From positions 5,504 to 69,503 of the forward strand of contig CANQWG010000003.1 of NCBI GenBank assembly GCA_947627505.1: a DNA stretch of 64,000 nucleotides, written 5' to 3'. Positions 48,233 through 63,239 of this stretch are shown one piece after another. Every line of letters starts with the position of its first letter. Within the stretch, counting starts at the first letter, position 1. This stretch comes from an uncultured Bacilli bacterium (GTDB taxonomy: Bacteria; Bacillota_I; Bacilli_A; RFN20; CAG-449). A program made the translations under genes and the position numbers. The notes beneath the pieces are model-generated. The model did no database searches and was not told the DNA's origin. It saw only the letters and a program-made list of their open reading frames with translations.

Positions 48233-50566
48233 TTATGAGTTCCAAAATTTTTGAACTTCTCTTTTAATATCTATCAAAGAAAATACTTTTCGATAATGCG
48301 ACCATTCTTTTTTAAACATCTCACGATATTTTTGATAAAGAAAGCGAGAATCGATCAATAAAACCACTCCTCGATCAGTCGCGGAACGGATCACTCTTCC
48401 GGCTGCTTGCATTACTTTATTCATTCCAGGATTAGTATAGGCGTAATCAAACCCGTCATAACCATTCGCGCTATAATGTTCTTTTAATAAGTCACGGTCA
48501 AATGAAATCGTCGGTAATCCGACACCGACGATAATCGCTCCGATAAGGCGATCAGAAGTTAAGTCGATTCCTTCGGAAAAAGCACCGCCCAAAACTGCAA
48601 AACCGACGGTCGTTTCACTCGGCGTTTCAATGAAATTGCTTAAAAATTCTTCTCTTTCCGCCTCTTTCATGTCACGGACTTGTTTGATGATTCGATAATC
48701 GCTATCTGAAAAATATTGATAAATTTCGTCTAAGTATGCAAACGAAGGAAAAAACACCAAATAATTTCCAACCTTTTCTTTAACGACGGCTTTAATCGAA
48801 TTAGCGACATCTACATAAGAAAGCGCACGATCTTTAAGGCGCGTTGAAATATCACCCCGAATCAATAGTAAAAGGTTTTGCGGTGGAAACGGCGAGTTTA
48901 ACGAGATATACGGACTAGTTTCATCGCCACCCAATAAACCAATGTAATAATCTCTAGGAGTTAGCGTCGCCGAGAAATAAACAATCCCTTTAGCTTTCCT
49001 CAAAGTATGTTTTATAAGTTTTGAAGAATCTAAACACTGAAGATGGGCAAACACATTACCATCTGTTTTTTCAAAATATGCCACAAAATCCGAAGAATAA
49101 AATTCACTGATCTTTAAAAATCTGCTGATATCGTTAAAGATATCACTGATTTTCTCACTGACAATTATCAAATCATTCTGTTGCGCATCATAAAAAGCTT
49201 TAAGCAAATTATCCAAAATCACATAAAATTCATCTGAAAAGCCGTTTTCTTGAATTTGACAATCTGTTTCGCCTTCTTTGACTTCTTCAAAAATAGCGAC
49301 GAGCTTTTTCAATTGTCTTTTTAATTTTGGAAGTTTTTCTCGTTTTAATAAGTGTTTTAAAAATACTAAATCATTCAAATTCAGATTGCACGAATACATA
49401 TTTCTAGAACGATCCACGAGATTATGAGCTTCATCGATAAGTAAAAGATATTGATCTTTAACAATTTCAAAATAATTCTTTAAATAAACGATCGGATCGA
49501 AAACATAATTATAATCACAAATGATCACGTCACAATAATACGATAGATCTAATTGCAGTTCAAAAGCACACATCGAATTTTCAATGGCAATTTTGGATAT
49601 GTAATTTTTATCGTAAAGATTTTCATTTTCTAACATCGTTTTTAAAACAGATTTTAATTTATCATAATAACCCTTAGCAAACGGACACTCATCAGGATTA
49701 CAATGTGCGATGTCGTTAAGGCACATTTTATCTTTGGCGGTCAGGATAATCGCTTTAATAACAAGTCCTTTTTGATGCATCAATTTAAGTGCGTCAAAAG
49801 CAATGTCCTTTTGAGACGATTTGGCTGATAAATAAAAAATTTTATCATTGCATTCATCGCTGAACGACTTGATTGCGGGAAATAACGTCGACATCGTTTT
49901 TCCAATACCAGTAGGAGCTTCGGCGAACAATAAACCGCCGTCTTGAGCGATTTTATAAACGAATTTTGCTAGTCTTCTTTGTCCTTCTCTAAAGGAAGGA
50001 TAAGGAAACACAAGATCCATGGCTGACTTTTGACGAAGTAAATTATGGTCATCGATTATTTTATAAAATTGTAAATATTCCCTTATTAAATTTTCAATAT
50101 CGTCTTTTAGTTCCTCCACTTTGAAAGTGAAGTTTTTGATCATCTTACTTCCATCGGTTTGCGAAATATATGTTAAACGGCACGATATTTTTTCAAGGTT
50201 ATTGGCTAACGAATACATCAAAGCATAACATTTCGCTTGTGCTAAATGCCATTCTCCTTGTTCTTCATAAAATTCTTTTAAATCGGCGACAGTCGATTTG
50301 ATCTCATCGACAATATAGCGCGTCGGTTCGACGATTATACCATCCGCCCGTCCGATTAAAATTACCTCAAAATCATCAACCTCAAACTTTTGTTGCAAAG
50401 GAACTTCAGAAAGGTAATTACCGCTTTGAATGCTTTGATACCGTAAATGAATTCTAGTTCCTTCGGATAAGGTTCCATTATTAAAAACGCGGCTATCGAT
50501 GCTTCCGCGACGCAACAAAAAATCGACAAGAGTATGAACGGAAAGATTGATAAGTTTTTGCATCAA
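48233..50566 (-). CDS. ATP-dependent DNA helicase, DinG/Rad3 (XPD-like) family
   Basis: Walker A AEAPTGIGKT, DEAH box LIDEAHNL, four-Cys Fe-S-like cluster (CLNDIAHCNPDECP), helicase C-terminal domain; 777 aa. Confidence 0.8.
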   Translation of the reverse strand: MMQKLINLSVHTLVDFLLRRGSIDSRVFNNGTLSEGTRIHLRYQSIQSGNYLSEVPLQQKFEVDDFEVILIGRADGIIVEPTRYIVDEIKSTVADLKEFYEEQGEWHLAQAKCYALMYSLANNLEKISCRLTYISQTDGSKMIKNFTFKVEELKDDIENLIREYLQFYKIIDDHNLLRQKSAMDLVFPYPSFREGQRRLAKFVYKIAQDGGLLFAEAPTGIGKTMSTLFPAIKSFSDECNDKIFYLSAKSSQKDIAFDALKLMHQKGLVIKAIILTAKDKMCLNDIAHCNPDECPFAKGYYDKLKSVLKTMLENENLYDKNYISKIAIENSMCAFELQLDLSYYCDVIICDYNYVFDPIVYLKNYFEIVKDQYLLLIDEAHNLVDRSRNMYSCNLNLNDLVFLKHLLKREKLPKLKRQLKKLVAIFEEVKEGETDCQIQENGFSDEFYVILDNLLKAFYDAQQNDLIIVSEKISDIFNDISRFLKISEFYSSDFVAYFEKTDGNVFAHLQCLDSSKLIKHTLRKAKGIVYFSATLTPRDYYIGLLGGDETSPYISLNSPFPPQNLLLLIRGDISTRLKDRALSYVDVANSIKAVVKEKVGNYLVFFPSFAYLDEIYQYFSDSDYRIIKQVRDMKEAEREEFLSNFIETPSETTVGFAVLGGAFSEGIDLTSDRLIGAIIVGVGLPTISFDRDLLKEHYSANGYDGFDYAYTNPGMNKVMQAAGRVIRSATDRGVVLLIDSRFLYQKYREMFKKEWSHYRKVFSLIDIKREVQKFWNS

Positions 50567-50633
50567 AAAACCACCATAGTTATTATAACTAAAAGTGGTT
50601 AAAGATTAAAGATTTTCACTCGTGGATTATCGA

Positions 50634-51554
50634 TTAGTGATACAGCAAATAAAAAATCGCCAATTCGATTAATAGCAAAGTGGAAACTACTAATTGCAAA
50701 TAGAAAATCTTACGATGTAACAATTGAGGTTCATTGCCGCTTTCGATGTCTTTTACGATGTATTGTCTAGTAATTTTTTTACCTCCGCTATAAATAGTTA
50801 AACCGATACTGATCACCGCAAAGATAATGATGAACACTAAAAAAGCACTATTTATTTCTCGTCCATTGTTTTGAAATAAGAAACTCATAATGAAGTAAGC
50901 GATAATTAACACAATATTGAAAATTAAAACCGGGTAACGCATTAATTTGATATTTAAAGCAATCGAAGTGATCTCTTTGGAAAGCTGATAATCTATTTTG
51001 ACTTCACCGGTTATTAAATTAGCGTATTGCGTCTTTTTTCCGATTTGAAAAACCACATACGGCAAATAAAAGACAACCACTTCTTGCTCTAAAATCTCCG
51101 ACCAAATTTCAAGTCCTTTTTTTGCTTCTTTATAATCCTTGCAATTCATTAAATGCTTCATTATCAGCAGTTTAATTTTATTCTCATCATAAGTGGAAGA
51201 ATTATTGTCTTGTGGATTGAAAGGTTCCATATCACTTTCTTGATATTTCGAAAGATCCTCTTCGATAAAAGGACAACTATTTTCTTCTGAATCGAATTCA
51301 TGCGACACTTCAAAAGTTTTCGTCGATCCATCTTGAAGTTTAGAATCGATTTTCGCTCGATATTTTAAGTGATAGACAACATGATATTTCTTTTCAATGC
51401 TCTTTTCGTCAAAGGTCGTCTTTTTGACAACATCCATAAAGGTGTTCGCCACATCTAAAGTCGAGGCACTGATTTCGGCTTTGGTCTTTTCAAACAGTTC
51501 TTCAACGGTATATTTTTCTTTAACGACAAAAATATTATTGATTTCCAATCCCAT
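50634..51554 (-). CDS. hypothetical protein with C-terminal transmembrane helices
   Basis: 306 aa; soluble N-terminal region then 3 TM segments. Confidence 0.45.
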   Translation of the reverse strand: MGLEINNIFVVKEKYTVEELFEKTKAEISASTLDVANTFMDVVKKTTFDEKSIEKKYHVVYHLKYRAKIDSKLQDGSTKTFEVSHEFDSEENSCPFIEEDLSKYQESDMEPFNPQDNNSSTYDENKIKLLIMKHLMNCKDYKEAKKGLEIWSEILEQEVVVFYLPYVVFQIGKKTQYANLITGEVKIDYQLSKEITSIALNIKLMRYPVLIFNIVLIIAYFIMSFLFQNNGREINSAFLVFIIIFAVISIGLTIYSGGKKITRQYIVKDIESGNEPQLLHRKIFYLQLVVSTLLLIELAIFYLLYH

Positions 51555-52054
51555 TACATCTTCTCCACTTGATAGTCTTTTTCATCGATCGCGATGGCTT
51601 TTTCAATTATCACTTTTTCATAAGGACGGTCATTGATGGTCGTTTTAACATTAGCGATTTTATCGACGACATCAAGACCATCGATCACTTTACCAAAAGC
51701 AGCATATTGCCCATCTAAATATAAAGCGTCTTGATGCATGATAAAAAATTGACTGCCGGCCGAATTCATATCATAACTGCGGGCCATTGAAATGACGCCA
51801 CGCGTATGATGTAGCGGATTATTTATTCCATTAGCCGAAAATTCGCCTTTAATAGCATAACTAGGACCACCGGTTCCATTACCCAAAGGATCACCACCTT
51901 GAATCATAAATCCTTTAATCACCCGGTGGAAAGTTAATCCATCATAAAATCCGCTTTTAACCAAACTTACAAAGTTAGCGCAAGTATTTTTAGCGGCTTC
52001 ATAGTCTAATTCAATGGTGATATCACCAAAGTCTTTAATTTTTAAAATGATCAT
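51554..52054 (-). CDS. ppiB: peptidyl-prolyl cis-trans isomerase, cyclophilin type
   Basis: FHRVIKGFMIQGGDP and cyclophilin length (166 aa). Confidence 0.9.
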   Translation of the reverse strand: MIILKIKDFGDITIELDYEAAKNTCANFVSLVKSGFYDGLTFHRVIKGFMIQGGDPLGNGTGGPSYAIKGEFSANGINNPLHHTRGVISMARSYDMNSAGSQFFIMHQDALYLDGQYAAFGKVIDGLDVVDKIANVKTTINDRPYEKVIIEKAIAIDEKDYQVEKM

Positions 52055-52256
52055 TTTTTAATCCTCGTTTCATTTCAAACATAGTGTAATTGATACTATT
52101 TTTAATTTCAATGCTTTACTACTTCTTCAATCATCAAGTTATTTTACACTTAATATTTTATGTCTCATCAAAACATTTATTTCTCAAATTCGGAAAATTT
52201 AATTTTCCACTTTAATTTCCTTATTTAAATGCTTTATTGATTTTCCTTTGTTGTTA

Positions 52257-52973
52257 TCAAACATTTTTTGCGGTTATTATTTTGTGTTTAAGATATTCAA
52301 TTATGTCATCATAATAATATGCAATTACCATAAAAATCATCGACACAATGGTGACTAATGAATAAAATATCCGTGCACCTTCTTGATGATAAAGTACGAA
52401 AAGTTCAATATTTTGAAGATTAGTTAAAATTATATTTATCACCAATTGGAACTTATGGAGTAAAAGACTCACCAGATTGTAAGTGTAAACGACAAGCGGC
52501 ATTAATAAAGCGATAACTTGCCACAATGTTTGTAAGGACACTTTATCTTCAGCAAGCGAAATAAAAATATTATGTTCCATTCCAGAAAACACTAAATCTA
52601 AGGTTAAAAACGCATTGCTCTCTTCTGAAGCATCGATAAAAATCATCATAACTACAATAAATACTTGAAGCAATAAAGAAATTATGGCAATCATTACTGA
52701 ACTTTTCCGTTTCGGTCTTACTATCGGTTCGTCGATTAAATCATTGATTTCAACGCCGAATATCTTGGCTATCAAAGGAAGCATATCTTTTTCAATTTCA
52801 AGTTCGCCATTTTCCCATTTGGAGATCGTTTTGTTCGTCACTCCTAATTGTTCACCTAACTCTTCTTGAGTTAAATCGCGTTCAATTCGGTATTGTTCTA
52901 TTTTAAGACCGACATGAGATAAAGAGATGTCATTTAAATTCTCTTGTTGCGGCGATGGCTTTTTTCCATCCAT
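52257..52973 (-). CDS. XRE-family HTH regulator fused to transmembrane domain
   Basis: HTH_XRE (LTQEELGEQLGVTNKTISKWENG) followed by 4-5 TM helices; 5' end overlaps glpK 3' end by ~40 nt. Confidence 0.65.
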   Translation of the reverse strand: MDGKKPSPQQENLNDISLSHVGLKIEQYRIERDLTQEELGEQLGVTNKTISKWENGELEIEKDMLPLIAKIFGVEINDLIDEPIVRPKRKSSVMIAIISLLLQVFIVVMMIFIDASEESNAFLTLDLVFSGMEHNIFISLAEDKVSLQTLWQVIALLMPLVVYTYNLVSLLLHKFQLVINIILTNLQNIELFVLYHQEGARIFYSLVTIVSMIFMVIAYYYDDIIEYLKHKIITAKNV

Positions 52974-54426
52974 AATATAAATCATCTCGTCTTTCTTGAG
53001 TTAAATGTGGCATAAAAACACGTTCGATGCGATGCGCGGTCTGAAGCTCTTCTTTATTTTTCCATAATCCAATGGCAAGTCCCGCCAAATAGGCAGCTCC
53101 TAACGCAGTAGTTTCAAGACATTCAGGACGCACTACTTTACAATCTAATATATCAGATTGAAATTGCATCAAATAATTATTGCTGCTAGCGCCGCCATCA
53201 ACCGCTAAAGAAGCGATTGGTATCTTGGAATCCTCTTTCATAACTTCCATAACATCTTTGCTTTGATAGGCGATCGATTCAATCGTAGCATTAATGAAAT
53301 GTTCCCGCTTGGTGCCTCTAGTTAATCCAAATACCGCTCCTCGAGCATCATTATCCCAATATGGCGTCCCTAAGCCGACAAAAGCTGGTACAACATAAAC
53401 ACCATCGCTACCATCGACTAATTGACTTGCCAATTCACAATCGCTCGATTTTTCAAAAAAGCGCATTCCGTCACGCAACCATTGAACAGCCGAACCACCG
53501 ATGAAGACCGATCCTTCCAATGCATATTCGACTTTACCATCAATACACCAAGAAATCGTCGATAATAAACCATTTTGAGAATCTACGATTTTATCTTTTG
53601 TATTCATTAACATAAAACATCCGGTACCGTAAGTATTTTTTACATCGCCTTTTTCAAAACAAAGTTGTCCAAAAAGCGACGCTTGTTGATCACCGATAAG
53701 GCTGCAAAGTGGAATTTCAAGGCTTTTATCGATCTTTTGTAAGGCGCTAGCGATTCCGTAATTTTTCGATGAATCACACACTTGAGGCAACATTTCTCTA
53801 GGAATATTAAATAAATTCATTAATTCTTCATCCCACTCTAAAGTGTGAATATTAAAAAGTAATGTTCGTGACGCGTTAGAATAATCGGTAATATGAAGTT
53901 TTCCTTCACTCAAGCGATAAGCTAAATATGTATCAACCGTACCAAACATCAACTCTCCCTTTTTCGCGCGTTCTTGGGCACCTTTAACGTGATCTAAAAT
54001 ATAACGGATTTTCGTAGCGCTAAAATACGGATTAATCAATAATCCGGTCTTTGCTTTAATTTTATTTTGATATCCGTCGACGATCATCTTTTCACAAATA
54101 TCTTTTGATTGCCGCGATTGCCAAACGATCGCATTGTAAATCGGCTCTCCGGTTTTCTTATCCCAAACGATGGTTGTTTCCCGTTGATTAGTAATGCCAA
54201 GAGCCATAATTTGTCCATGCAGTGGCTTTAATGCATTAATCACTGACTTTAAAGCTTCAAATACTGTTTCATATATCTCTTTAGCATCTTGTTCTACCCA
54301 ACCGCTTTGAGGAGTGGTAATCGTCACTTCGATTTGTTCTTTAGCGACGATATTGCCCTTTTTGTCAAATGCAATTACGCGGCTCGACGTTGTTCCTTGA
54401 TCAATGGCGATAATGTATTTTTCCAT
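52930..54426 (-). CDS. glpK: glycerol kinase
   Basis: YIIAIDQGTTSSR, FGTVDTYL, 498 aa. Confidence 0.95.
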   Translation of the reverse strand: MEKYIIAIDQGTTSSRVIAFDKKGNIVAKEQIEVTITTPQSGWVEQDAKEIYETVFEALKSVINALKPLHGQIMALGITNQRETTIVWDKKTGEPIYNAIVWQSRQSKDICEKMIVDGYQNKIKAKTGLLINPYFSATKIRYILDHVKGAQERAKKGELMFGTVDTYLAYRLSEGKLHITDYSNASRTLLFNIHTLEWDEELMNLFNIPREMLPQVCDSSKNYGIASALQKIDKSLEIPLCSLIGDQQASLFGQLCFEKGDVKNTYGTGCFMLMNTKDKIVDSQNGLLSTISWCIDGKVEYALEGSVFIGGSAVQWLRDGMRFFEKSSDCELASQLVDGSDGVYVVPAFVGLGTPYWDNDARGAVFGLTRGTKREHFINATIESIAYQSKDVMEVMKEDSKIPIASLAVDGGASSNNYLMQFQSDILDCKVVRPECLETTALGAAYLAGLAIGLWKNKEELQTAHRIERVFMPHLTQERRDDLYYGWKKAIAATREFK

Positions 54427-54590
54427 ATAATTGTCCTCATTCTCATTTTATTAATTCCTATTATAAGCGTAAAAATGAAAAAAAGAAATTACATAGAATA
54501 ACTATTGTAATTAAGAATAGAGTACATTCTTTTTGATTAACTAAATTAAATATATTACAAGGTAACTTGATTTATTAAATAGAAATTATA

Positions 54591-55382
54591 TTAGGCTTGT
54601 TTTCTTTTAATAATTTCTTGAGCAAAATTTTTAATGACAACCACGGAATTATCAGGAACACTTTCAAGAATATAAGTGTTAGCGCCGATTATAACATTAT
54701 TGCCGATTGTTGTCTTGCCACCTAAAATCGAAGCATTGGCGTATATAGTCACATTATTTCCGATTGTGGGATGCCTTTTTATTCCCTTTAATTGTTGACC
54801 GCGACTTAAAGATAAGGCTCCTAAAGTCGTTCCTTGATAAAGTTTTACATAATTGCCGATAATCGTCGTTTCACCGATGACGATTCCGGTTCCGTGATCG
54901 ATAAAAAAAGATTCACCGATTTGGGCTCGCGGATGAATGTCAATCCCGGTTTTTGAATGGATTATTTCACTCATCATTCGCGGAATATAAGGTAACCCTA
55001 AATCATCTAATTCATGAGCGATACGATATACCATAATCGCCACCAATCCCGGTGACGTAAATATTGCTTCATCGATATCGTTAAGTGACGGATCATTATT
55101 AAATATAGCTTGTAAATCCATTTTAAGCATAGAAACAATTTTATCATATCTATTAAAAAATGCAGTTATTAAGCTACTAGAATCTATCTTTAATGATGAA
55201 GAAATATTTATAGCGGCAATCAATGCTTTCAAGTTGTCGGTTACCATTTCAAATAGTTTTTGTGAATCAATTTCCGCGAAAAAATATCCCGGAAAAAGCA
55301 GCGCTTGAAAATGATCGATAAGCTCTTCGACCTTATCTTTACAGATGCAATTAGGATAAGGGCGTTTAAGAACGAAATTCAC
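54591..55382 (-). CDS. cysE: serine O-acetyltransferase
   Basis: SATase N-terminal domain plus hexapeptide-repeat left-handed beta-helix (IGNNVIIGANT); immediately after cysK. Confidence 0.85.
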   Translation of the reverse strand: MNFVLKRPYPNCICKDKVEELIDHFQALLFPGYFFAEIDSQKLFEMVTDNLKALIAAINISSSLKIDSSSLITAFFNRYDKIVSMLKMDLQAIFNNDPSLNDIDEAIFTSPGLVAIMVYRIAHELDDLGLPYIPRMMSEIIHSKTGIDIHPRAQIGESFFIDHGTGIVIGETTIIGNYVKLYQGTTLGALSLSRGQQLKGIKRHPTIGNNVTIYANASILGGKTTIGNNVIIGANTYILESVPDNSVVVIKNFAQEIIKRKQA

Positions 55383-55383
55383 C

Positions 55384-56295
55384 TTAATCTCCTACGATTT
55401 GATTCGACAAATATCGTTCGCCACCATCAGGAAATATCGTAACGATATTTAATCCTTGATTTTCTTTTCTTCTTGCGATTTTTAATGAGGCGGCATAGGC
55501 TGCTCCTGAAGAAATTCCGACAAATAATCCGTGATTAATCGCTAAGTATCTCGCACTTTCTAGCGCTTCTTCATCTGTAATGTCGATTACTTCATTTAAT
55601 AGGCTTAAATCTAATATTTTAGGAATAAATCCGGCTCCGATTCCTTGAATTTTATGAGGACCGGCTTTTCCCTCGGCATTAAGCACATTTGAATTAGCCG
55701 GTTCAACACCGATGATTTTAATTTGAGGATTCCTTTCTTTAAGATATTTTCCAACACCGCTTATCGTTCCGCCGGTACCGATTCCACAAACTAAGATATC
55801 AACGTTACTACAGTCCCTTTCAATTTCCGGTCCGGTAGTTAAATAATGGGCTCTAACGTTAGACGGATTTTCAAATTGCGACAAAAAATAAGAATTTTTT
55901 ATCTGTTGTTGCAATTCATGAATGCGCGAAATTGAACCTCGCATTCCGTCTTTCTTATCGGTTAAAATAATCGTCGCTCCGTATGCCTTCATTAACGATC
56001 TTCGTTCTATTGACATCGAAGAAGGCATCACACAGATAAATTTCATTTTATAAATCGCGGCTATCAACGCTAATCCGATACCCGTATTTCCCGAAGTCGC
56101 TTCAAGAAGCGTCGTTTCATGGTTGATTAATCCGCTTTCAAGCGCATCGTCAATCATTTGTTTCGCAATGCGAATTTTTATCGATCCGCTAGGATTAAAC
56201 ATTTCGATTTTAGCATAAATATTGGCCTTTAAATCTGCTTCTTCCATTTTAATTAAAGGGGTATTACCGATAGTTTCAAGAATGCTATTTTTCAT
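55384..56295 (-). CDS. cysK: cysteine synthase A (O-acetylserine sulfhydrylase)
   Basis: PLP-lysine region NPSGSIKIR, glycine-rich GTGGT loop; 303 aa. Confidence 0.9.
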   Translation of the reverse strand: MKNSILETIGNTPLIKMEEADLKANIYAKIEMFNPSGSIKIRIAKQMIDDALESGLINHETTLLEATSGNTGIGLALIAAIYKMKFICVMPSSMSIERRSLMKAYGATIILTDKKDGMRGSISRIHELQQQIKNSYFLSQFENPSNVRAHYLTTGPEIERDCSNVDILVCGIGTGGTISGVGKYLKERNPQIKIIGVEPANSNVLNAEGKAGPHKIQGIGAGFIPKILDLSLLNEVIDITDEEALESARYLAINHGLFVGISSGAAYAASLKIARRKENQGLNIVTIFPDGGERYLSNQIVGD

Positions 56296-56356
56296 AAATT
56301 CCTCCTAAAATATCAGTAAAAAAATATGCTATACCTTAAATTATTATGAATAACCT

Positions 56357-56899
56357 TTAATTTAAAAATGCCATTTCAATTGCTCTTTTTACTTTTTCGA
56401 TCATTTCATCTTTCAAGGTGATTTTACCGGTGTCTTGTCCGTTCATTCGTGCGATACGCCGTTTAGAAACCGAGCGAATCGCATCTAATTTTAAAAACGA
56501 ATGCGCATTTTCATTTTTATCATTCAATCCTTCAATTATTCCTAAATCGAAAGTCAATAAAGAACCTGGAGCGTCACGACTTGAAAGCGGAATGACCACA
56601 ACATTTCCTAAATCGATGGCCCATACCAACGCATAATGACCATGTGTTTTATAGTCGCTGAGTTCCGTTCCGACGTTGATTCCAAATTCCACCCAGACTA
56701 CATCGCCACGAGAAAGATTGTCTGGTTGCGCTCCATAGCCCAATTTATTTATTGATTGATTTAAATATGCCGTTTTACGATCAAGCCAAGTAAGATACTC
56801 TAAGGCGATTTCACTATCGATATTTTGTAATTGCTTTTTTATCGACGAAAAAACCTCATCTGCCTTCGCATTTGTCTTTCTTTTCGATCGATTTAGCAT
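56357..56899 (-). CDS. MazF/PemK-fold domain protein with ~60-aa N-terminal extension
   Basis: GDVVWVEFGINVGTELSDYKTHGHYALVWAIDLGNVVVIPLSS aligns by eye to E. coli MazF GDLIWVDFDPTKGSEQAGHRPAVVLS...CVPCTT; own promoter and RBS AGGGTGA. Confidence 0.6.
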   Translation of the reverse strand: MLNRSKRKTNAKADEVFSSIKKQLQNIDSEIALEYLTWLDRKTAYLNQSINKLGYGAQPDNLSRGDVVWVEFGINVGTELSDYKTHGHYALVWAIDLGNVVVIPLSSRDAPGSLLTFDLGIIEGLNDKNENAHSFLKLDAIRSVSKRRIARMNGQDTGKITLKDEMIEKVKRAIEMAFLN

Positions 56900-56951
56900 A
56901 TATCAATCACCCTAATATTTAATATATGCAATTTTTAAAATTTGCTAAAAA

Positions 56952-58256
56952 TTATCTTATTGAAAATTCCTCTTCATCAACACCATAAAGATCATAATCG
57001 CCACTATCGACAATGCGACATTGAGCGATGTCTCCTTCTCCATAATTTTTATTAGAAGAAAAGTAGATTATACCATCGATATCATCCGGCGCATTAAAAT
57101 AACTTCTTAAAGTATAAAGATTTTTTTCCTGATCGTATCCGGTCACAATGCCTCGATGTTTTTCACCGATTCTCAGTTTATTTTTACGATTAGAAATTTG
57201 TCTTTGAAGATCCATAAGTTCCTTTTTGCGTTTGTTAGCAAGTGATTTCTTTACTTGCGGTTTCATATTAAAAGAAACTGTATCTTCTTCGCGCGAATAT
57301 GTAAAAACACCTAAATGATCGAATTGTATTTCATTAACAAATTCTTTTAATATTTTAAAATCGTCTTCGGTTTCACCCGGAAAACCGACAATCAAAGTCG
57401 TTCTTAAAATCGGATTTTTAACTTTGGTTCTGATTTTATCAAAAAGATTTTTAAGATCATCTAAATTACCGCGTCGATTCATAGATTGCAACATTTTATT
57501 AGAAGCGTGCTGTATCGGAATATCGAAATATGGTGTCAATCTTTCATTAGCCCCGATTAATTCGATAAGCGCATCATTAATTTCACTAGGATAAAGATAT
57601 AATAAACGTATGTATTCAAACGAAGTTTCCTTAAGCAAATCCTTTAATAGATTTTCAATACGATAATCAGCATATAAATCGGTTCCGTAACGAGTCGTAT
57701 CTTGTGAAATGACAACTAATTCTTTAACTCCTCGTCTTTCAAGGCTTTTTGCCTCGTTTAAAATGTCTTCTTTTTTAAAAGATTTAAAGCTACCTCGAAT
57801 AAGCGGTATCGCACAATAACTGCATCGATTGTTGCATCCTTCGGAAATTTTTAAATACGCGGTAAAAGATGGAGTCGCTAAAACACGATTTAAGCGATTC
57901 AACTCACCCTTTAACGGCAAATGGCGATAATTTGAAAGTAATTCAATAAAATGAGCATAGTCTCTTATTGGAATAAAAAGATCAACTTCAGGCAATTCTT
58001 TTTTTAGATCATTAAGATAACGTTCAACCAGACAACCGGTAACCACTAAAAATTTATGATATGCACTCATTTCAAGAATGGTTTCGATCGATTCTTCTTT
58101 ACTATCTTTAATAAAACCGCATGTGTTAACGATAATGATATCTGCTTCTTCCGGAGAGGAAGTTATTTCAAGACCATTTTCTTTCATGAGTCCCATCATC
58201 ATTTCCGAATCAACGAGATTTTTAGCGCATCCTAAACTAACTAAACCAACTTTCAT
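56952..58256 (-). CDS. rimO: ribosomal protein S12 methylthiotransferase RimO (MiaB-family radical SAM)
   Basis: N-terminal VGLVSLGCAKNLVDSE (RimO-type MTTase domain), radical SAM CNNRCSYC, C-terminal TRAM domain. Confidence 0.85.
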   Translation of the reverse strand: MKVGLVSLGCAKNLVDSEMMMGLMKENGLEITSSPEEADIIIVNTCGFIKDSKEESIETILEMSAYHKFLVVTGCLVERYLNDLKKELPEVDLFIPIRDYAHFIELLSNYRHLPLKGELNRLNRVLATPSFTAYLKISEGCNNRCSYCAIPLIRGSFKSFKKEDILNEAKSLERRGVKELVVISQDTTRYGTDLYADYRIENLLKDLLKETSFEYIRLLYLYPSEINDALIELIGANERLTPYFDIPIQHASNKMLQSMNRRGNLDDLKNLFDKIRTKVKNPILRTTLIVGFPGETEDDFKILKEFVNEIQFDHLGVFTYSREEDTVSFNMKPQVKKSLANKRKKELMDLQRQISNRKNKLRIGEKHRGIVTGYDQEKNLYTLRSYFNAPDDIDGIIYFSSNKNYGEGDIAQCRIVDSGDYDLYGVDEEEFSIR

Positions 58257-58302
58257 AATTCAACCTCGCATTTAATTATAATTATTTATTTAAGTTAAGC
58301 AA

Positions 58303-58331
58303 GAAAAAAGTCGAAGCATTACGCTCCGACT
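58303..58331 (-). terminator. rho-independent terminator
   Basis: Minus strand GUCGGAGCguaauGCUUCGAC hairpin followed by U6. Confidence 0.7.
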
Positions 58332-58348
58332 TTTGTTTAGTTTTTTCT

Positions 58349-58627
58349 CTAGAAGAATGCGGAAATACCACCAACAAGGGCAAGTGCAACGCAGACCCAA
58401 TAAATAATTAACCAAACATTTTTATTTTTCTTGAAGAATTCTAGATTTAAGGCGCCGTATGCTGTAACAATCAAGCAGATTGAAATCAAAAGATCAGCAA
58501 TCTTTTTTAAGACATCGAGGAAACCCCATGTTACGCCAAAAGCTCCTAATAAGGTAATCACTCCAAATAGAAATAATGCAACAAAAGAAGCGATTCCAAA
58601 AACTAGATTAAATGTTGATTTTTTCAT
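58349..58627 (-). CDS. small membrane protein (3 TM)
   Basis: 92-aa hydrophobic ORF; RBS GGAGG upstream. Confidence 0.5.
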   Translation of the reverse strand: MKKSTFNLVFGIASFVALFLFGVITLLGAFGVTWGFLDVLKKIADLLISICLIVTAYGALNLEFFKKNKNVWLIIYWVCVALALVGGISAFF

Positions 58628-58744
58628 TTTCCTTACCTCCGATAAATATTATAATTTATCGCAATTATTTTTTCTATAATAATGTTTAATTTTTTAACAA
58701 TTGAAATACCGAATTTGATTGTTATAATTTATTTGGATAAACAT

Positions 58745-61075
58745 ATGTTAAAATTACTTTGGATTTGTTTTTTATTAAGTTTCATTCCGACAAATTGTCG
58801 AGAACTTGATGCTAGCTTTGTGCAAGCAAAACCGGCAGAATTTTCATATGAACTAAGTGTCGAAGAAGAACCTCTTTACTCTCTTCAAGCAAATTTTAAT
58901 TTTTTAAATCTCGACGATACTTTATCTAATTATCGCGGTGAAAATGTAAAAATCGCGGTCATTGATTCGGGTCTTGATATCGATCATCAAGAATTCAAGG
59001 ATTCTAATGGCAACTTGGTTAATATCTCTTATGATTCTGCTTATGTCAAACGCAATGTGAATACTGGCGTAATAAGTTTTCAAACGATAACCGACTACGG
59101 ATTTTCTATAATCGACGATGACAATACTCAATATAATAGTCACGGAACCGCGGTATGCGGTGTGATCGCTTCTAGAGTAAATAAAGTAGGCATTACCGGA
59201 ATTGCTCCTGAAGTTGAATTGATGGTATTAAAGACCGAATATTACATCGATCAATTAAAAGAAGGTATTATTTATGCCGTTGACCATGGTGCTAAGATTA
59301 TTAATTTATCTTGCGTCATTTATAAATCTTCTTATAGTGCCATCGACTCATACTTCACTTCGGCAATCAATTACGCTAAAAACAAAGGAGTGATTATCGT
59401 AGCCGCTGCCGGCAACGATTCTAAAACCGAAAAAGCCTATCCGGCAGCATATTCCGATGTAATTGGTGTTGGAGCGTTAGCTGATGGAAGCGGTAATTTA
59501 TTAGCCTCTTATTCAAATTATGGTATCGATAATACCACTCTAGTTGCTCCGGGAACTTTTTATTTACCTAAAAATAATGCTCCCGATTATTATACCAAAG
59601 TCAGTGGAACTTCTTTCGCTTGTCCTGCCGTAGCCGCAGCGATCGCTCTTTTTGAATCCAAATTTCCGGACGCGACGCGCGAACAAGTAATCGAAAAACT
59701 TTTAAAATCTAGCGACGATTTAGGCGATAATCAAAAATTCGGAAACGGGCGCCTTAATATTTCACGTTACTTAGATCAATACCCTGTTACCGGTGTGCAG
59801 CTTAGTGAACATGAATTGAATTTGGAAGTTGGCGAACAATACATTTTGGAAGCGACTGTTTTTCCTCTAAATGCCTCTAATCAAGAAAAACTTTTTATTT
59901 CAGATGACGAAAATATCGTCACTATCGATGAGCTTACCGGGGAAATTGAAGCCTTAAGCGTCGGAAATACCGATGTTGGAGTAATAACTGACGATGGCTC
60001 TTTTATTGACCAATGTAAGATTAATGTCGTTCCTAAAGTGATTGTCACCGAGGTTGAATCTATCACATTAAATCCCGATTCTTTAATTCTTAAAATTGGT
60101 CAAAAATTACAATTGATTGCCACAATTTTGCCTGAAAACGCAACTAACAAAGAAATTTTTTGGAGTTCTTCCGATTCTAATGTCGCCACTATCGATTCCA
60201 ATGGCACCATAACCGCGTTAAAGGAAGGCAATGCTACTTTAACCGCTACTACTAGTAATAATAAAAAAGATTTTTGTAGTCTTACTGTGCCAAAGTTAGA
60301 AACACCGCAACTCATAATCGACGATTCAAACTTCGATTATAAAATTCCTTTTAAAAATCATCTTGATGCTTCTTCATTAAATATTTTCTATCGAGATCAA
60401 TATGGGAAACAAAGATTATTAAGTTCTCAAGAAGTAACTTTTACCTATGATGCTTCTCGCTTGGGTATACAAAATTTAACGATAGCCTACCTAGACTTAA
60501 GTAAAACTTTAGAAATATTTGTAACAAATAAAGGCGCTATCGAATATGATGGCACCACTAATTTTTTCACTCCTAGTCAACAAGCTGAAGCTTATAGTCT
60601 TTTTTTTATATCGACAACTGAATTAGGTACGTTCGATTCAGACGCTTGGGCGATGTTGCACGAGGAATTCGATTTTATGATTCCAGCAAGTCAAGAGCTT
60701 CTTTTACGCGAAGACTTAAATTCTTTTAAATCACGATATCGTAAATATGTGGCTCTTGGATACTTAGATTTTATCGACGAAGAATTATTTGAAAATTCCT
60801 CATCAGATGATACTTCATCGAATTCTAGTTTTGATTCTGAAAACATAGAAACTTCTTCAGACTTAACTAGTGCTACCGATTCATCTCTATCTTCATCAAG
60901 CGAAACTTCCACTTCATTTAATAATTTCCAAAATACTAGTGAAAGTAATCCTCAAAATTCAACAACTGATCCGCATAATAAAAATTCTTTTTCGTTATAT
61001 ATAATTCTGTTAAGTGTTGGAACTTTATCGCTTCTTGTTTTATCTTTAGTTCTTTTCATTAAAAAGAAAAAATAA
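58745..61075 (+). CDS. S8 subtilisin-like serine protease with two Big_2 domains and C-terminal TM anchor
   Basis: Catalytic triad motifs VIDSGLDIDH, HGTAVCGVIAS, GTSFACPAVAAAIAL; two Ig-like Big_2 segments; Ser/Thr-rich stalk; C-terminal TM followed by KKKK; signal peptide from MLKLLW. Confidence 0.85.
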   Translation: MLKLLWICFLLSFIPTNCRELDASFVQAKPAEFSYELSVEEEPLYSLQANFNFLNLDDTLSNYRGENVKIAVIDSGLDIDHQEFKDSNGNLVNISYDSAYVKRNVNTGVISFQTITDYGFSIIDDDNTQYNSHGTAVCGVIASRVNKVGITGIAPEVELMVLKTEYYIDQLKEGIIYAVDHGAKIINLSCVIYKSSYSAIDSYFTSAINYAKNKGVIIVAAAGNDSKTEKAYPAAYSDVIGVGALADGSGNLLASYSNYGIDNTTLVAPGTFYLPKNNAPDYYTKVSGTSFACPAVAAAIALFESKFPDATREQVIEKLLKSSDDLGDNQKFGNGRLNISRYLDQYPVTGVQLSEHELNLEVGEQYILEATVFPLNASNQEKLFISDDENIVTIDELTGEIEALSVGNTDVGVITDDGSFIDQCKINVVPKVIVTEVESITLNPDSLILKIGQKLQLIATILPENATNKEIFWSSSDSNVATIDSNGTITALKEGNATLTATTSNNKKDFCSLTVPKLETPQLIIDDSNFDYKIPFKNHLDASSLNIFYRDQYGKQRLLSSQEVTFTYDASRLGIQNLTIAYLDLSKTLEIFVTNKGAIEYDGTTNFFTPSQQAEAYSLFFISTTELGTFDSDAWAMLHEEFDFMIPASQELLLREDLNSFKSRYRKYVALGYLDFIDEELFENSSSDDTSSNSSFDSENIETSSDLTSATDSSLSSSSETSTSFNNFQNTSESNPQNSTTDPHNKNSFSLYIILLSVGTLSLLVLSLVLFIKKKK

Positions 61076-61081
61076 AGCCGA

Positions 61082-61648
61082 CTATTTGGCTTTATCGATC
61101 ATTTCTTTGGCCATCAACAACACCGGCAATTCTCTTTGTTGAATTAGTTTTGCTACTTTTCCTATCATCGCGTTTTGATATAAATCGATCGCTTTATCTA
61201 AAGATACCCAAACCATGCCTTTAATAAAAGTTTTCTCTTCCGGAAGAAGATTATTTTGATGCAATGATTTTAAGCGGCAGAGATAGTAATAAGAAATCGT
61301 CTTCCGTTTTATCAAATTATAATAATCTTCGGTAACCAATAAAGGTGCAATAATTTCTACTTCGGCCCCGATTTCTTCGTTTAACTCACGTTTTAAAGCT
61401 TCTTCTTTAGTTTCATTTTTTTCAATGCCACCACCCGGAGTTTCATAATGGTCGCGATGTCCGAAAATATCATCACAATAAATTTTCAGAAGCGGTATTT
61501 CATTTTTTTCGTTAAGCACGATTCCCCTTGCAACTTCCCTTACGTGATCAAAACCATGATTAGGATAAAGATTATCTTCAAAACATAAAGTTGTTTTAAA
61601 CATTTTTCTTTTGCCCTTTAAAATAGATTTCTTCAATAATGCCACCAC
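61082..61648 (-). CDS. NUDIX hydrolase
   Basis: Nudix box GGGIEKNETKEEALKRELNEEIG; real start possibly at M16 (61603). Confidence 0.8.
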   Translation of the reverse strand: MVALLKKSILKGKRKMFKTTLCFEDNLYPNHGFDHVREVARGIVLNEKNEIPLLKIYCDDIFGHRDHYETPGGGIEKNETKEEALKRELNEEIGAEVEIIAPLLVTEDYYNLIKRKTISYYYLCRLKSLHQNNLLPEEKTFIKGMVWVSLDKAIDLYQNAMIGKVAKLIQQRELPVLLMAKEMIDKAK

Positions 61649-62738
61649 CTAAAAGGCGATCATTGTCATAAAACACCGCGGCTTGTCCGGGTGTTACCGC
61701 TTTATATGGTGCATCGTAAATCACTTCAATCGTCTCTTCGTCGATATAATTGATCGTCACCGGAAGATCTTTTTGACGATAACGGAATTTACAACCAACG
61801 TGAAGACTTTTAAAAGGCTCTCCTATCCAATTGATGCTTTTAACGATGGCTCGATCCGAAAGAAGATATTCGTTTTCTTCGCCTTGGGCCACATAAAGGA
61901 TGTTATTTTTAACATTCTTAGCCACAACAAACCACGAATCGGTCGTGCGATTTTTTAATCCTCCGATTCCTAATCCGCGGCGCTGCCCTAAAGTATAATA
62001 AAGGACTCCATCGTGGTGTCCTACCACTTCTTGCGTTACAATGTCAACAATATCACCGGGCTTAGCAGGAAGATAATTATTTAAAAATAATTTAAAATTT
62101 CGTTCTCCGATAAAACAAACCCCCGTGCTGTCCTTTTTATCAGCGATCGACAAATCCAACTGATGCGCGATTTTTCTGACTTCGGTTTTATCGATTTTTC
62201 CTAACGGAAATAAACAATAAGACAATTGTTTCTCACTCACTTGGGAAAGGAAGTAAGTTTGATCTTTATTTTGATCAAACGCTTTATGAAGCTCCACTCG
62301 TCCGTTTGAACGATCGACGCGATAAGCATAGTGACCGGTGGCGATTAAATCGAAACCTTCTTTTAAAGCAAATTTTAAAAACGCATCAAATTTAATATAT
62401 TTATTGCAAAAGATATCGGGGTTAGGAGTTCTACCTTTCCGATATTCATCGAGAAAATATGAAAAAACCTCATCCCAATACTCTTTGATAAAGTCGATGC
62501 GATAAAGATGAATTCCAAGCTTATCAGCGACCGCTTCAGCATCCTTATAATCGGCTTCTTGAGGGCACATTGAATCGTTGATTGTCGGATTACCGAGATA
62601 ATCATTGTTGGCAAATGCATCCCAGTTTCGCATAAAAGCCGCCGAAACATCATAGCCTTGCTCTTTTAAAAGATAAGCGGCTATCGCGGAATCAACTCCT
62701 CCAGAAAGCCCAACGAGCACTTTAATCTTCTTTTCCAT
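61596..62738 (-). CDS. mnmA: tRNA-specific 2-thiouridylase MnmA
   Basis: PP-loop VGLSGGVDS, 380 aa; ATG with RBS GAGGA; ATGA overlap with dtd stop. Confidence 0.92.
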   Translation of the reverse strand: MEKKIKVLVGLSGGVDSAIAAYLLKEQGYDVSAAFMRNWDAFANNDYLGNPTINDSMCPQEADYKDAEAVADKLGIHLYRIDFIKEYWDEVFSYFLDEYRKGRTPNPDIFCNKYIKFDAFLKFALKEGFDLIATGHYAYRVDRSNGRVELHKAFDQNKDQTYFLSQVSEKQLSYCLFPLGKIDKTEVRKIAHQLDLSIADKKDSTGVCFIGERNFKLFLNNYLPAKPGDIVDIVTQEVVGHHDGVLYYTLGQRRGLGIGGLKNRTTDSWFVVAKNVKNNILYVAQGEENEYLLSDRAIVKSINWIGEPFKSLHVGCKFRYRQKDLPVTINYIDEETIEVIYDAPYKAVTPGQAAVFYDNDRLLGGGIIEEIYFKGQKKNV

Positions 62739-63196: not shown

Positions 63197-63239
63197 CCGT
63201 TTATATTATAAACGAGTGAATTTAAAATCCCAAACAAAA

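What the first reader, a model, noticed from the sequence alone, without database searches (positions are those of the whole stretch)
56357..56899. Solo MazF/PemK-fold protein with a long N-terminal extension and no adjacent antitoxin, between rimO and cysK
Residues ~63-125 align convincingly by eye to the MazF core (GDVVWVEFGINVGTELSDYKTHGHYALVWAIDLGNVVVIPLSS versus E. coli GDLIWVDFDPTKGSEQAGHRPAVVLS...CVPCTT). The 180-aa protein has a ~60-aa N-terminal extension and a ~50-aa C-terminal tail. No small upstream antitoxin ORF exists; rimO ends 52 nt upstream and the gene has its own promoter and RBS. Candidate explanations are a fused antitoxin-toxin, a domesticated endoribonuclease, or a toxin controlled by an unlinked antitoxin.
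Basis: partly seen in the sequence, partly recalled or inferred. Interest (0 to 1): 0.55.

Follow-up and report, generated by a model that had tools for sequence, protein, structure and literature searches.

The report
Solo long MazF-like gene after rimO
This is a real but unusual relative of the MazF RNA-cutting toxins, carrying a conserved extra N-terminal helical module and no antitoxin gene, that an entire lineage of uncultured gut Bacilli has kept right behind the ribosome-modification gene rimO under strong purifying selection, so it behaves like a domesticated host gene rather than a mobile toxin-antitoxin cassette.

Summary
Window 56357-56899 (-) encodes a 180-aa protein with a significant PemK_toxin match (E 1.1e-10, residues 64-175). 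Its core is modelled confidently (pLDDT 90.5) and superposes on S. aureus MazF. The 63-aa N-terminal extension is real, helical, basic and conserved. The supposed 50-aa C-terminal tail is simply the rest of the MazF domain.

No antitoxin ORF exists upstream, downstream or overlapping, here or in 62 related genomes. No repeat-RNA antitoxin was found in the window or in two relatives checked.

The new findings:
- The gene sits 12-71 nt after rimO in 56 of the 59 loci that hold both genes, while the downstream genes vary.
- It co-diverges with RimO (Mantel r 0.75), is more conserved than RimO in 81% of pairs, has dN/dS of about 0.02-0.1, and uses native codons.
- Its closest outgroup lives in SPbeta-like phage accessory regions, once next to MazE, and more distant relatives sit on small plasmids.
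- The canonical catalytic Arg is replaced by Tyr89, next to an invariant His88.

Best reading: a domesticated, antitoxin-less long-form MazF ribonuclease. A start-codon-occluding hairpin may limit its expression. Its function is untested. This is a new variant of a known kind, of moderate interest.

The parts
56357..56899 (-). Long-form PemK/MazF-like gene (180 aa plus stop)
   Evidence: ORF. Pfam PF02452 at E 1.1e-10. 431 full-length homologues. dN/dS about 0.02-0.1.
56711..56899 (-). N-terminal extension, residues 1-63: basic tail, helix-loop-helix (H2-24, H29-50), then a conserved linker Y55..Q58-P59-D60
   Evidence: AF2 full-length model. Invariant I20, L24, E30, A32, W38, Y55, Q58, P59 and D60. 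Net charge +2 to +6. dN/dS 0-0.13 in most pairs. No Pfam family. L24, A32, W38, K42 and P59 are also kept in the phage sister clade.
56360..56710 (-). MazF/PemK beta-barrel core plus C-terminal helix, residues 64-180. Tyr89 sits at the canonical catalytic Arg position. E79, H88, R148 and K159 are invariant. S106, K137, D139 and R142 are at least 90% conserved.
   Evidence: Pfam match over residues 64-175. hhalign. Core model pLDDT 90.5. Foldseek to S. aureus MazF and MazF-mt1. Invariant columns.
56907..56913 (-). Shine-Dalgarno AGGGTGA, 7 nt before the ATG
   Evidence: Read from the sequence. GGTG is nearly invariant in the alignment of 45 relatives.
56896..56929 (-). Candidate mRNA hairpin GCAUAUAUUAA-(12 nt loop with the SD)-UUGAUAUAUGC. 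The 3' arm contains the start codon (56899-56897).
   Evidence: Inverted repeat I19. dG -10.9, z -2.3. Family-wide mean z is -1.95, against 0.02 for the rimO start regions. Covariation support is moderate. The L013 homologue is flagged as an intrinsic terminator.
56921..56948 (-). Weak promoter-like site TTAGCA-16-TATATT. The -10-like hexamer lies inside the 5' arm of the hairpin.
   Evidence: 9/12 match, with no excess of sites over shuffles. CATATATTAA is nearly invariant across relatives.
56952..58256 (-). rimO (30S ribosomal protein S12 methylthiotransferase), the conserved upstream partner on the same strand
   Evidence: TIGR01125 equivalog at 470.8 bits against a cutoff of 357. Upstream on the same strand in all 59 loci that hold both genes; gap 12-71 nt in 56 of them by the first-start estimate.
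55384..56295 (-). cysK, the downstream neighbour only in this species group (not part of the conserved unit)
   Evidence: TIGR01139 at 388 bits. Downstream only in L001-L003.

Best explanation
The gene encodes a genuine member of the PemK/MazF superfamily, but of a distinct 'long' subfamily.

Architecture:
- A basic N-terminal helix-loop-helix module is fused to the MazF beta-barrel.
- The canonical catalytic Arg-Pro is replaced by His-Tyr/Phe.

Origin and inheritance:
- This subfamily is mostly carried by Firmicute phages and small plasmids, usually with no adjacent antitoxin.
- In the ancestor of this lineage of uncultured gut Bacilli, one copy became fixed immediately downstream of rimO.
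- It has since been inherited vertically under strong purifying selection, so it is a domesticated host gene and not a mobile toxin-antitoxin cassette.

Inferred mechanism (not shown):
- It is a sequence-specific RNA-binding endoribonuclease with a retooled active site. The candidate residues are His88, Glu79, Ser106/Ser107, Lys137, Asp139 and Arg142.
- Its potential toxicity is contained without a separate antitoxin in two ways.
- First, expression is kept low. An mRNA hairpin holds the start codon in its 3' arm, and in some relatives it doubles as the rimO terminator.
- Second, the built-in N-terminal module acts in cis.
- Its target is probably an RNA of the translation apparatus or a specific set of transcripts.
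For: Family and fold:
- Pfam PF02452 is above threshold.
- hhalign to MazF/Kid gives 90.7%.
- The confident core model matches S. aureus MazF and MazF-mt1.

No antitoxin:
- The rimO-to-gene gap is 12-71 nt in 56 of 59 loci.
- No conserved small or overlapping ORF exists.
- No MazE/Kis-like ORF and no second PemK copy lie in the 64-kb window.
- No tandem-repeat RNA was found in the window or in the two relatives checked.

Domestication:
- rimO is adjacent in all 59 loci that hold both genes, while the downstream genes are not conserved.
- The Mantel correlation with RimO divergence is r 0.75, reached by 0 of 2000 permutations. The protein is more conserved than RimO in 81% of pairs.
- dN/dS is 0.0-0.13 for the extension and 0.015-0.12 for the core.
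- Codon usage is native.
- There are no hits in phage collections for this clade.

Mobile ancestry:
- The sister clade sits in SPbeta-like phage accessory regions.
- Distant relatives sit on Bacillus and Fusobacterium plasmids.
- BFVD structural hits are long phage PemK-like proteins.

Same chemistry retained:
- E79, H88, N75, R148 and K159 are invariant across the chromosomal and phage clades. K137, D139 and R142 are nearly so.

Expression control:
- The start region is more structured than shuffles in 30 of 59 loci, against 3 of 59 rimO controls.
- Covariation support is moderate.
- The L013 hairpin is flagged as a terminator that includes the start codon.
Against: - No activity, toxicity or target has been tested.
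- The canonical catalytic Arg (E. coli R29) is missing, so the protein could be catalytically inactive.
- The full-length model is only moderate (pLDDT 74.7, and only one of five models scored above pLDDT 55). No coordinates were available, so the position of the N-terminal module relative to the RNA groove is unknown.
- Vertical inheritance does not exclude a defence role.
- Some chromosomal mazEF loci are also syntenic across genera (my own knowledge: the Bacillus/Staphylococcus locus upstream of the sigB operon).
- The hairpin is absent in the short-gap, TTG-start subclade, and its 5' arm is nearly invariant. That fits a -10 promoter box at least as well as a stem.
- I could not determine whether every genome of the lineage carries the gene.
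Confidence: 0.5

Rival explanations
1. It is a single-chain toxin-antitoxin or abortive-infection module. The N-terminal helix-loop-helix is a cis-acting antitoxin or sensor that keeps the MazF nuclease off until a trigger such as a phage protein, proteolysis or stress releases it. This would resemble EzeT or CapRel(SJ46), or the groove-blocking helices predicted in CRISPR-T/CalpT.
For: - The extra conserved domain is fused in cis and no antitoxin gene is present.
- Sister-clade genes sit in phage accessory regions beside Kiwa (KwaA/KwaB) and GmrSD-like genes.
- Most phage and plasmid relatives are also solo.
- Precedents exist for single-chain TA (PMC4826407) and for a MazF-like domain with its own groove-blocking helices (bioRxiv 10.1101/2021.12.06.471393, read).
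Against: - The extension is net basic (+2 to +6), the opposite of the acidic MazE tail that mimics RNA.
- It matches no Pfam family.
- The phage relative in L067 keeps the extension and also has a bona fide MazE gene directly upstream. That argues the extension is not by itself the antitoxin.
- PADLOC gives no hit.
- Fixed position, single copy, strict vertical inheritance and conservation above that of RimO are atypical of defence genes.
Confidence: 0.22
2. It is a catalytically inactive MazF-fold protein exapted as an RNA- or protein-binding adaptor or regulator. It could be an accessory factor for RimO or ribosome maturation, or an autoregulator binding the palindromic element at its own start site.
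For: - The canonical catalytic Arg is replaced by Tyr89 throughout the family.
- The gene is strictly linked to rimO across deep divergence, where RimO identity falls to 42%.
- The N-terminus is basic helix-loop-helix-like.
- An 11-bp inverted repeat spans the start site.
Against: - A full set of invariant polar residues persists around the predicted active site (E79, H88, S106/S107, K137, D139, R142). By eye, K137 and D139 line up with the Kid catalytic pair R73/D75 (Kid numbering is from my own memory).
- The same residues are conserved in phage and plasmid relatives that have no rimO next to them.
- The similarity of the extension to bHLH proteins is at chance level (E about 1).
Confidence: 0.15
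3. It is a conventional MazF toxin whose antitoxin is encoded elsewhere in the genome, or is a host regulator acting in trans, as reported for the solitary MazF-mx of Myxococcus xanthus.
For: - No linked antitoxin exists.
- A solitary MazF precedent is cited in PMC2701414.
- A relative can pair with MazE (L067).
Against: - Nothing MazE/AbrB/Kis-like lies within 64 kb (low sensitivity).
- The family profile is so diverged from canonical MazF that no solved MazF is found by sequence. Cross-neutralisation by a generic MazE therefore looks unlikely.
- The rival does not explain the conserved N-terminal module or the rimO linkage.
Confidence: 0.1

Closest known systems
MazF / EndoA of Staphylococcus aureus and Bacillus subtilis (type II toxin, Pfam PF02452)
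   Same: - Same beta-barrel plus C-terminal helix fold (Foldseek E 1.6e-5, TM 0.66-0.72 to 4mzp).
- Conserved GD..V.F...G.E start motif.
- S/T at the E. coli Thr52 position and Glu at the Glu24 position.
   Different: - 63-aa N-terminal helix-loop-helix extension.
- Longer beta1-beta2 loop.
- Catalytic Arg replaced by Tyr89, with invariant His88 before it.
- No mazE gene.
- Sequence so diverged that neither phmmer nor the family profile finds any solved MazF.
Kid/PemK of plasmid R1/R100
   Same: - Same superfamily and Pfam model.
- The invariant K137-x-D139 lines up with the Kid R73-x-D75 catalytic pair. This was judged by eye from the alignments, and the residue roles come from my own knowledge.
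   Different: - No Kis/PemI partner.
- Chromosomal and vertically inherited.
- No equivalent of Kid His17 at the aligned position.
Solitary MazF-mx of Myxococcus xanthus
   Same: A chromosomal MazF homologue without an adjacent antitoxin gene, integrated into host physiology (cited in PMC2701414).
   Different: MazF-mx is a short canonical MazF reported to be controlled by a transcription factor in trans. Here there is a fused N-terminal module, a changed active-site residue and clade-wide linkage to rimO.
Single-chain toxin-antitoxins (EzeT) and CRISPR-T/CalpT
   Same: A toxin-fold domain is covalently joined to extra helices that could restrain it in cis. CRISPR-T has a MazF-like domain with helices predicted to occupy the RNA groove (PMC4826407; bioRxiv 10.1101/2021.12.06.471393).
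   Different: - No sequence relationship of the extension to those proteins was found.
- No protease or CRISPR context.
- The extension is basic.
- Cis-inhibition is untested here.
Type III toxins ToxN/CptN
   Same: Distant structural similarity of the core (4rmo, E 8.6e-3, TM 0.47-0.58). No protein antitoxin.
   Different: No upstream tandem-repeat RNA antitoxin in the window or in the two relatives with long upstream gaps that were checked. The upstream gap here is only 52 nt.
Long phage 'PemK-like' proteins (PHROG 1412, labelled 'antitoxin mazE-like')
   Same: They share the N-terminal extension plus the first half of the barrel (E 8.2e-17, residues 23-116). BFVD structural hits are 178-266-aa phage PemK-like proteins.
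   Different: Many of the phage proteins are 250-270 aa, with an insertion splitting the barrel (P0176, P0183). They are mobile, and their function is also unknown.

Membership tests
PemK/MazF superfamily (Pfam PF02452) | Significant match to the family profile above the curated threshold | tested here: met
   42.1 bits against a gathering score of 23.1, E 1.1e-10, residues 64-175 covering profile positions 2-106 of 109. hhalign to MazF/Kid gives probability 90.7%.
PemK/MazF superfamily (Pfam PF02452) | SH3-like beta-barrel with C-terminal helix (MazF/Kid fold) | tested here: met
   Core model pLDDT 90.5, pTM 0.85. Foldseek matches to 4mzp, 9g7k, 2mf2 and 6kys at E 1.6e-5 to 6.5e-4, TM 0.61-0.72.
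PemK/MazF superfamily (Pfam PF02452) | Canonical MazF catalytic pair: Arg (E. coli R29 / B. subtilis R25) and Thr (T52 / T48) | tested here: not met
   Tyr89 aligns with R29. Ser106 aligns with T52 and is conserved as S/T. The canonical sequences and residue roles are from my own memory. His88 is invariant and could substitute for the Arg, which is an inference.
PemK/MazF superfamily (Pfam PF02452) | Sequence-specific endoribonuclease activity and growth inhibition | not testable with these tools
   Requires biochemistry and expression assays.
Type II mazEF/pemIK toxin-antitoxin module | Adjacent, co-transcribed small antitoxin gene (MazE/AbrB, RHH, Phd or similar) | tested here: not met
   There are 52 nt to rimO and 61 nt to cysK. 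Gaps are 12-71 nt in 56 of 59 relatives. No conserved small or overlapping ORF exists. No MazE/Kis-like ORF lies in the window.
Type II mazEF/pemIK toxin-antitoxin module | Mobile, patchy, horizontally transferred distribution | tested here: not met
   The position after rimO is fixed. Mantel r is 0.75 with RimO. Codon usage is native. The clade is absent from the phage collections. Whether every genome of the lineage carries the gene was not tested.
Type II mazEF/pemIK toxin-antitoxin module | Palindromic operator at the promoter for autoregulation | tested here: inconclusive
   An 11-bp inverted repeat spans the start site. U.G wobbles on the sense strand and the thermodynamic z-scores fit an RNA hairpin as well.
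Type III toxin-antitoxin (ToxIN/CptIN) | Tandem-repeat RNA antitoxin immediately upstream of the toxin gene | tested here: not met
   No repeats with a period above 10 nt near the gene, in L073 (735-nt upstream gap) or in L069.
Single-chain (fused) toxin-antitoxin | Additional domain in the same polypeptide as the toxin domain | tested here: met
   The 63-aa conserved helix-loop-helix extension.
Single-chain (fused) toxin-antitoxin | The extra domain neutralises the toxin domain in cis, or resembles a known antitoxin | tested here: inconclusive
   The extension matches no Pfam family and is net basic. A relative keeps it while also having a MazE gene. Cis-neutralisation itself cannot be tested here.

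The most novel reading that the evidence does not exclude
The MazF-fold protein is functionally coupled to RimO and the ribosome. It would be a domesticated toxin turned into a dedicated RNA-binding or RNA-cleaving factor of ribosome or tRNA biology in a reduced-genome gut lineage, for example acting on 16S rRNA or S12-proximal RNA, or setting translation capacity. It would operate without any antitoxin because its retooled His-based active site and N-terminal module make it a specific, non-lethal enzyme.
Probability: 0.12. Interest if true: 0.75.

Novelty: new variant of a known kind. Interest (0 to 1): 0.5.

Why it matters
Toxin-antitoxin toxins are usually regarded as mobile, fast-evolving and dependent on a cognate antitoxin. 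Here a MazF-fold protein with a built-in N-terminal module and a changed catalytic residue has been kept, without any antitoxin gene, as a core gene of an uncultured gut lineage. It is more conserved than the housekeeping enzyme next to it.

If it is active, it would be a clear case of toxin domestication. It would also be a handle on how a MazF nuclease can be made safe in cis.

It also defines a sparse 'long MazF' subfamily of about 355 clusters (at 50% identity) among 1.8 billion proteins. This subfamily spans phages, plasmids and chromosomes, and its function is unknown.

Tried and rejected
- **Full-length fold search against the PDB:** no significant match (best E 0.06, ribosomal L21e-type barrels). 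The full-length model was only moderate. Re-modelling the core alone solved this.
- **Sequence searches against the PDB:** neither the single sequence nor the family profile found any MazF.
- **Other libraries:** NCBIfam and PADLOC gave no family.
- **Phage collections:** tblastn against INPHARED with this protein and with a sister-clade protein found nothing. IMG/VR pattern scans also found nothing.
- **Overlapping or antisense ORFs as hidden antitoxins:** rejected. They are fragmented shadow frames of the conserved coding sequence.
- **Type III RNA antitoxin:** rejected.
- **Functional link to tRNA-Thr(GGU):** considered because the tRNA follows the gene in 37 loci. It has its own near-consensus promoter and is absent from the window, so I treat the adjacency as positional.
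- **bHLH-like reading of the extension:** similarity to Max is at chance level (E about 1).
- **RNAalifold on the MAFFT alignment of the start region:** predicted no pairs. Explicit pair counts and a register-anchored test were used instead.
- **Rfam:** nothing in 50000-64000.
- **Literature:** searches for long, solo or fused MazF, PemK with rimO, and YifN found no description of this clade.

Full report
**1. The observation**

The ORF at window 56357-56899 on the minus strand encodes 180 aa.
- It matches Pfam PemK_toxin (PF02452) at E 1.1e-10 and 42.1 bits, above the gathering score of 23.1. Residues 64-175 cover profile positions 2-106 of 109.
- The 63-residue N-terminal extension is real.
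- NCBIfam and PADLOC give nothing.
- PHROGs gives phrog_1412 (E 8.2e-17). That match covers residues 23-116, which is the extension plus half of the barrel.
- The neighbours are as stated. rimO (TIGR01125 equivalog, 470.8 bits against a cutoff of 357) ends 52 nt upstream. cysK (TIGR01139, 388 bits) starts 61 nt downstream.
- A Shine-Dalgarno AGGGTGA lies 7 nt before the ATG.

**2. Fold and active site**

By sequence the protein is far from every characterised toxin. Neither phmmer nor the family profile finds any solved MazF, Kid or CcdB.

Homology is nevertheless well supported.
- Profile-profile alignment against E. coli MazF, B. subtilis EndoA, S. aureus MazF and Kid gives probability 90.7%, E 1.3e-6, over residues 62-178.
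- The full-length AlphaFold model was only moderate (pLDDT 74.7; one model reached that and the other four were below 55). It gave no significant PDB match.
- A model of residues 61-180 built on a deeper 58-sequence alignment is confident (pLDDT 90.5, pTM 0.85, all five models agreeing).
- That core model matches S. aureus MazF (4mzp, E 1.6e-5, TM 0.66-0.72, RMSD about 3.3 Å) and M. tuberculosis MazF-mt1. It matches the type III toxin CptN more distantly.

In the alignment:
- Tyr89 occupies the position of the canonical catalytic Arg (E. coli R29).
- Ser106 occupies the Thr52 position.
- Glu79 occupies the Glu24 position.
- His88, just before Tyr89, is invariant. So are E79, N75, R148 and K159 across both the chromosomal clade and its phage sister clade. 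K137, D139, R142 and R147 are nearly invariant.
- By eye, K137-x-D139 lines up with the Kid R73-x-D75 pair. The residue roles here are from my own knowledge.

I infer a retooled rather than a lost active site. This has not been shown.

**3. The N-terminal extension**

- It is predicted as a basic tail followed by two helices (H2-24, H29-50) and a conserved linker (Y55, Q58-P59-D60).
- It is net basic, at +2 to +6.
- It matches no Pfam family on its own.
- It is under purifying selection. In L008 against L010 it has 15 synonymous and 0 nonsynonymous differences. dN/dS is 0-0.13 in most pairs, against 0.015-0.12 for the core.
- Its key residues (L24, A32, W38, K42, P59) are also kept in the phage sister clade.
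- A similar aromatic-x-W helix motif is visible in more distant relatives.

The extension is therefore an old, integral part of a 'long MazF' subfamily. It is not a local addition or a mis-called start.

**4. No antitoxin**

- Sixty-two species-level genomes carry the gene. All are uncultured gut Bacilli of the CAG-826, CAG-288, CAG-449 and Caccosoma types.
- In 56 of the 59 loci that hold both genes, the gap from the rimO stop to the start is 12-71 nt.
- Downstream genes are not conserved.
- Small ORFs overlapping the gene are fragmented shadow frames.
- No MazE/Kis-like ORF and no second PemK copy lie in the 64-kb window.
- No tandem-repeat RNA antitoxin was found in the window or in two relatives with long upstream gaps.

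**5. Evolutionary behaviour**

- rimO is the upstream neighbour on the same strand in all 59 loci that hold both genes, even where RimO identity falls to 42-47%.
- Pairwise divergence of the protein tracks that of RimO (Mantel r 0.75, reached by 0 of 2000 permutations). The protein is more conserved than RimO in 81% of pairs.
- Codon usage is native (distance 0.189 against a null of 0.252 ± 0.034).
- Only 355 clusters at 50% identity, out of 1.84 billion representatives, match the family profile at E ≤ 1e-3. Many of them share the N-extension-plus-barrel layout.
- The closest outgroup (94 proteins, in Clostridia/Bacillota MAGs) lies in SPbeta-like phage or prophage accessory regions in seven of the eight places examined. 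These carry YomN/YomO/YomX, tail and portal genes and integrases, once beside Kiwa KwaA/KwaB and once beside a GmrSD-like gene. The eighth place, L070, shows no phage marker.
- Only one of those eight places (L067) has a bona fide MazE gene directly upstream (PF04014, 43.1 bits).
- More distant relatives (about 30% identity, aligned over the extension as well) sit on small Bacillus and Fusobacterium plasmids. In the Bacillus cases no gene lies immediately upstream of them apart from rep.

The picture is a mobile, mostly antitoxin-less long-MazF family from which one copy was captured and fixed behind rimO in the ancestor of this lineage.

**6. Expression signals**

An 11-bp inverted repeat (56919-56929 and 56896-56906) would fold the mRNA so that the SD sits in the loop and the AUG in the 3' arm (dG -10.9, z -2.3).
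- Across 59 loci the -50..+20 region has mean z -1.95. Thirty of 59 are below -2, and the AUG is fully paired in 33 of 59.
- The rimO start regions of the same loci give mean z 0.02, 3 of 59 and 12 of 59.
- Explicit pair counts give 69.1% of cells paired against 64.7 ± 1.3 in shuffles (1/500), and a covariation score of 0.175 against 0.130 (0/500).
- A register-anchored test gives 79% pairing in the core register against 16-63% when slid. The outer stem is 56% paired against 48.4 ± 2.3 (1/2000).
- In L013 the hairpin plus its U-run is flagged as an intrinsic terminator that includes the start codon.

There are cautions.
- RNAalifold on the gappy MAFFT alignment predicts nothing.
- The 5' arm CATATATTAA is nearly invariant and contains the -10-like TATATT of the weak promoter match TTAGCA-16-TATATT.
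- The structure is absent in the short-gap, TTG-start subclade.

I therefore regard it as a partly supported element. It may terminate or attenuate rimO transcripts and occlude translation, possibly with a promoter nested inside it.

**7. The tRNA link**

tRNA-Thr(GGU) follows the gene on the same strand in 37 loci.
- It has its own near-consensus promoter: L008 at 11/12, L022 at 11/12 and L013 at 10/12.
- It is missing from the window and its closest relatives, where cysK-cysE-glpK follow instead.

I treat the link as positional. The variable, integrase-containing DNA beyond the tRNA explains why downstream synteny is lost.

**8. Interpretation**

Best explanation (confidence 0.5): a domesticated, antitoxin-less long-form MazF ribonuclease, held in check by low expression and by its own N-terminal module.

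Rivals:
- A single-chain toxin-antitoxin or abortive-infection sensor (0.22). This is weakened by the basic charge of the extension, the lack of any antitoxin similarity, and the L067 relative that keeps the extension alongside a separate MazE.
- An inactive MazF-fold adaptor linked to RimO or acting as an autoregulator (0.15).
- A conventional toxin with an unlinked antitoxin (0.10).

Precedents read here:
- The solitary MazF-mx (PMC2701414).
- The single-chain EzeT (PMC4826407).
- The MazF-like CRISPR-T, whose own helices are predicted to block the RNA groove (bioRxiv 10.1101/2021.12.06.471393).

No paper in the held library describes this clade.

**9. Verdict**

This is a real feature and a member of the PemK/MazF superfamily by profile and fold. 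It is not a type II or type III toxin-antitoxin module by the tests that could be run. It is a new variant of a known kind, with interest 0.5. It would be more interesting if the rimO or ribosome coupling or the cis-control proves real.

Noticed in passing
window 56896-56929 (-); homologous positions in L003-L061 (for example L013 5973-6004): A conserved hairpin at the rimO/PemK-like junction holds the SD in its loop and the start codon in its 3' arm. In several relatives it is flanked by an A-run and a U-run and is flagged as an intrinsic terminator. The nearly invariant 5' arm CATATATTAA also contains a -10-like TATATT, so a terminator, a translational occluder and a nested promoter are all possible.
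   Followed up: partly
L004-L062, 33-240 nt after the PemK-like stop in most (for example L008 6595-6668, L022 6568-6641): tRNA-Thr(GGU) follows the gene on the same strand in 37 of the 62 loci. It has its own near-consensus sigma-70 promoter (TTGACA-17-TATATT or TAAAAT). It is absent from the window and from L001-L003, where cysK-cysE-glpK have replaced it. Beyond the tRNA the content is variable, with integrases and AAA-type ATPases, as at a tRNA integration hotspot.
   Followed up: partly
L008, L010, L011, L035, L038, L043, L046, L050, L057, L059 (upstream parts): All or part of a tRNA cluster (Cys-Pro-Ala-Met-Met-Ser-Met-Asp-Phe) lies upstream of rimO, from about 1.2 kb to more than 4 kb away. 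The rimO/PemK-like pair therefore sits inside an old tRNA-rich neighbourhood.
   Followed up: no
L066 2092-3583; L068 3569-4543; L067 4685-4924: Sister-clade long-PemK genes sit in SPbeta-like phage accessory regions. One is next to Kiwa (KwaA/KwaB) and one is next to a GmrSD_N protein. One (L067) has a 79-aa MazE_antitoxin gene 76 nt upstream even though the toxin keeps the N-terminal extension.
   Followed up: partly
P0176, P0183; phrog_1412: A phage subgroup of about 250-270 aa has an insertion of roughly 100 aa that splits the MazF barrel in two. PHROGs labels this family 'antitoxin mazE-like', although the match is to the extension plus the toxin barrel. That is probably a misnomer.
   Followed up: no
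L029 and L050 (both from MAG DUOF01, AS08sgBPME_148); L053 and L062 (both from MAG JALFBO01, SUG531): Two MAGs each yield two contigs carrying the gene. The L050 copy has no rimO within 6 kb upstream and lies about 1.1 kb after a tRNA cluster. L062 is cut at its start. These could reflect strain mixtures or rearrangements.
   Followed up: no
L013, L016, L018, L023, L024 (immediately after the PemK-like gene): In one subclade a 160-181-aa ORF is inserted between the PemK-like gene and tRNA-Thr. It has not been annotated.
   Followed up: no
window 58682-61075 (+) and 58349-58627 (-): Divergently upstream of rimO lie a 797-aa ORF, which I labelled a subtilisin-like (S8) peptidase from reading its sequence, and a 92-aa hydrophobic ORF. 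The large ORF has an N-terminal hydrophobic segment, a Ser/Thr-rich C-terminal region and a hydrophobic C-terminus. The 92-aa ORF has no NCBIfam hit. Both are conserved only in the closest relatives (L001-L003).
   Followed up: no
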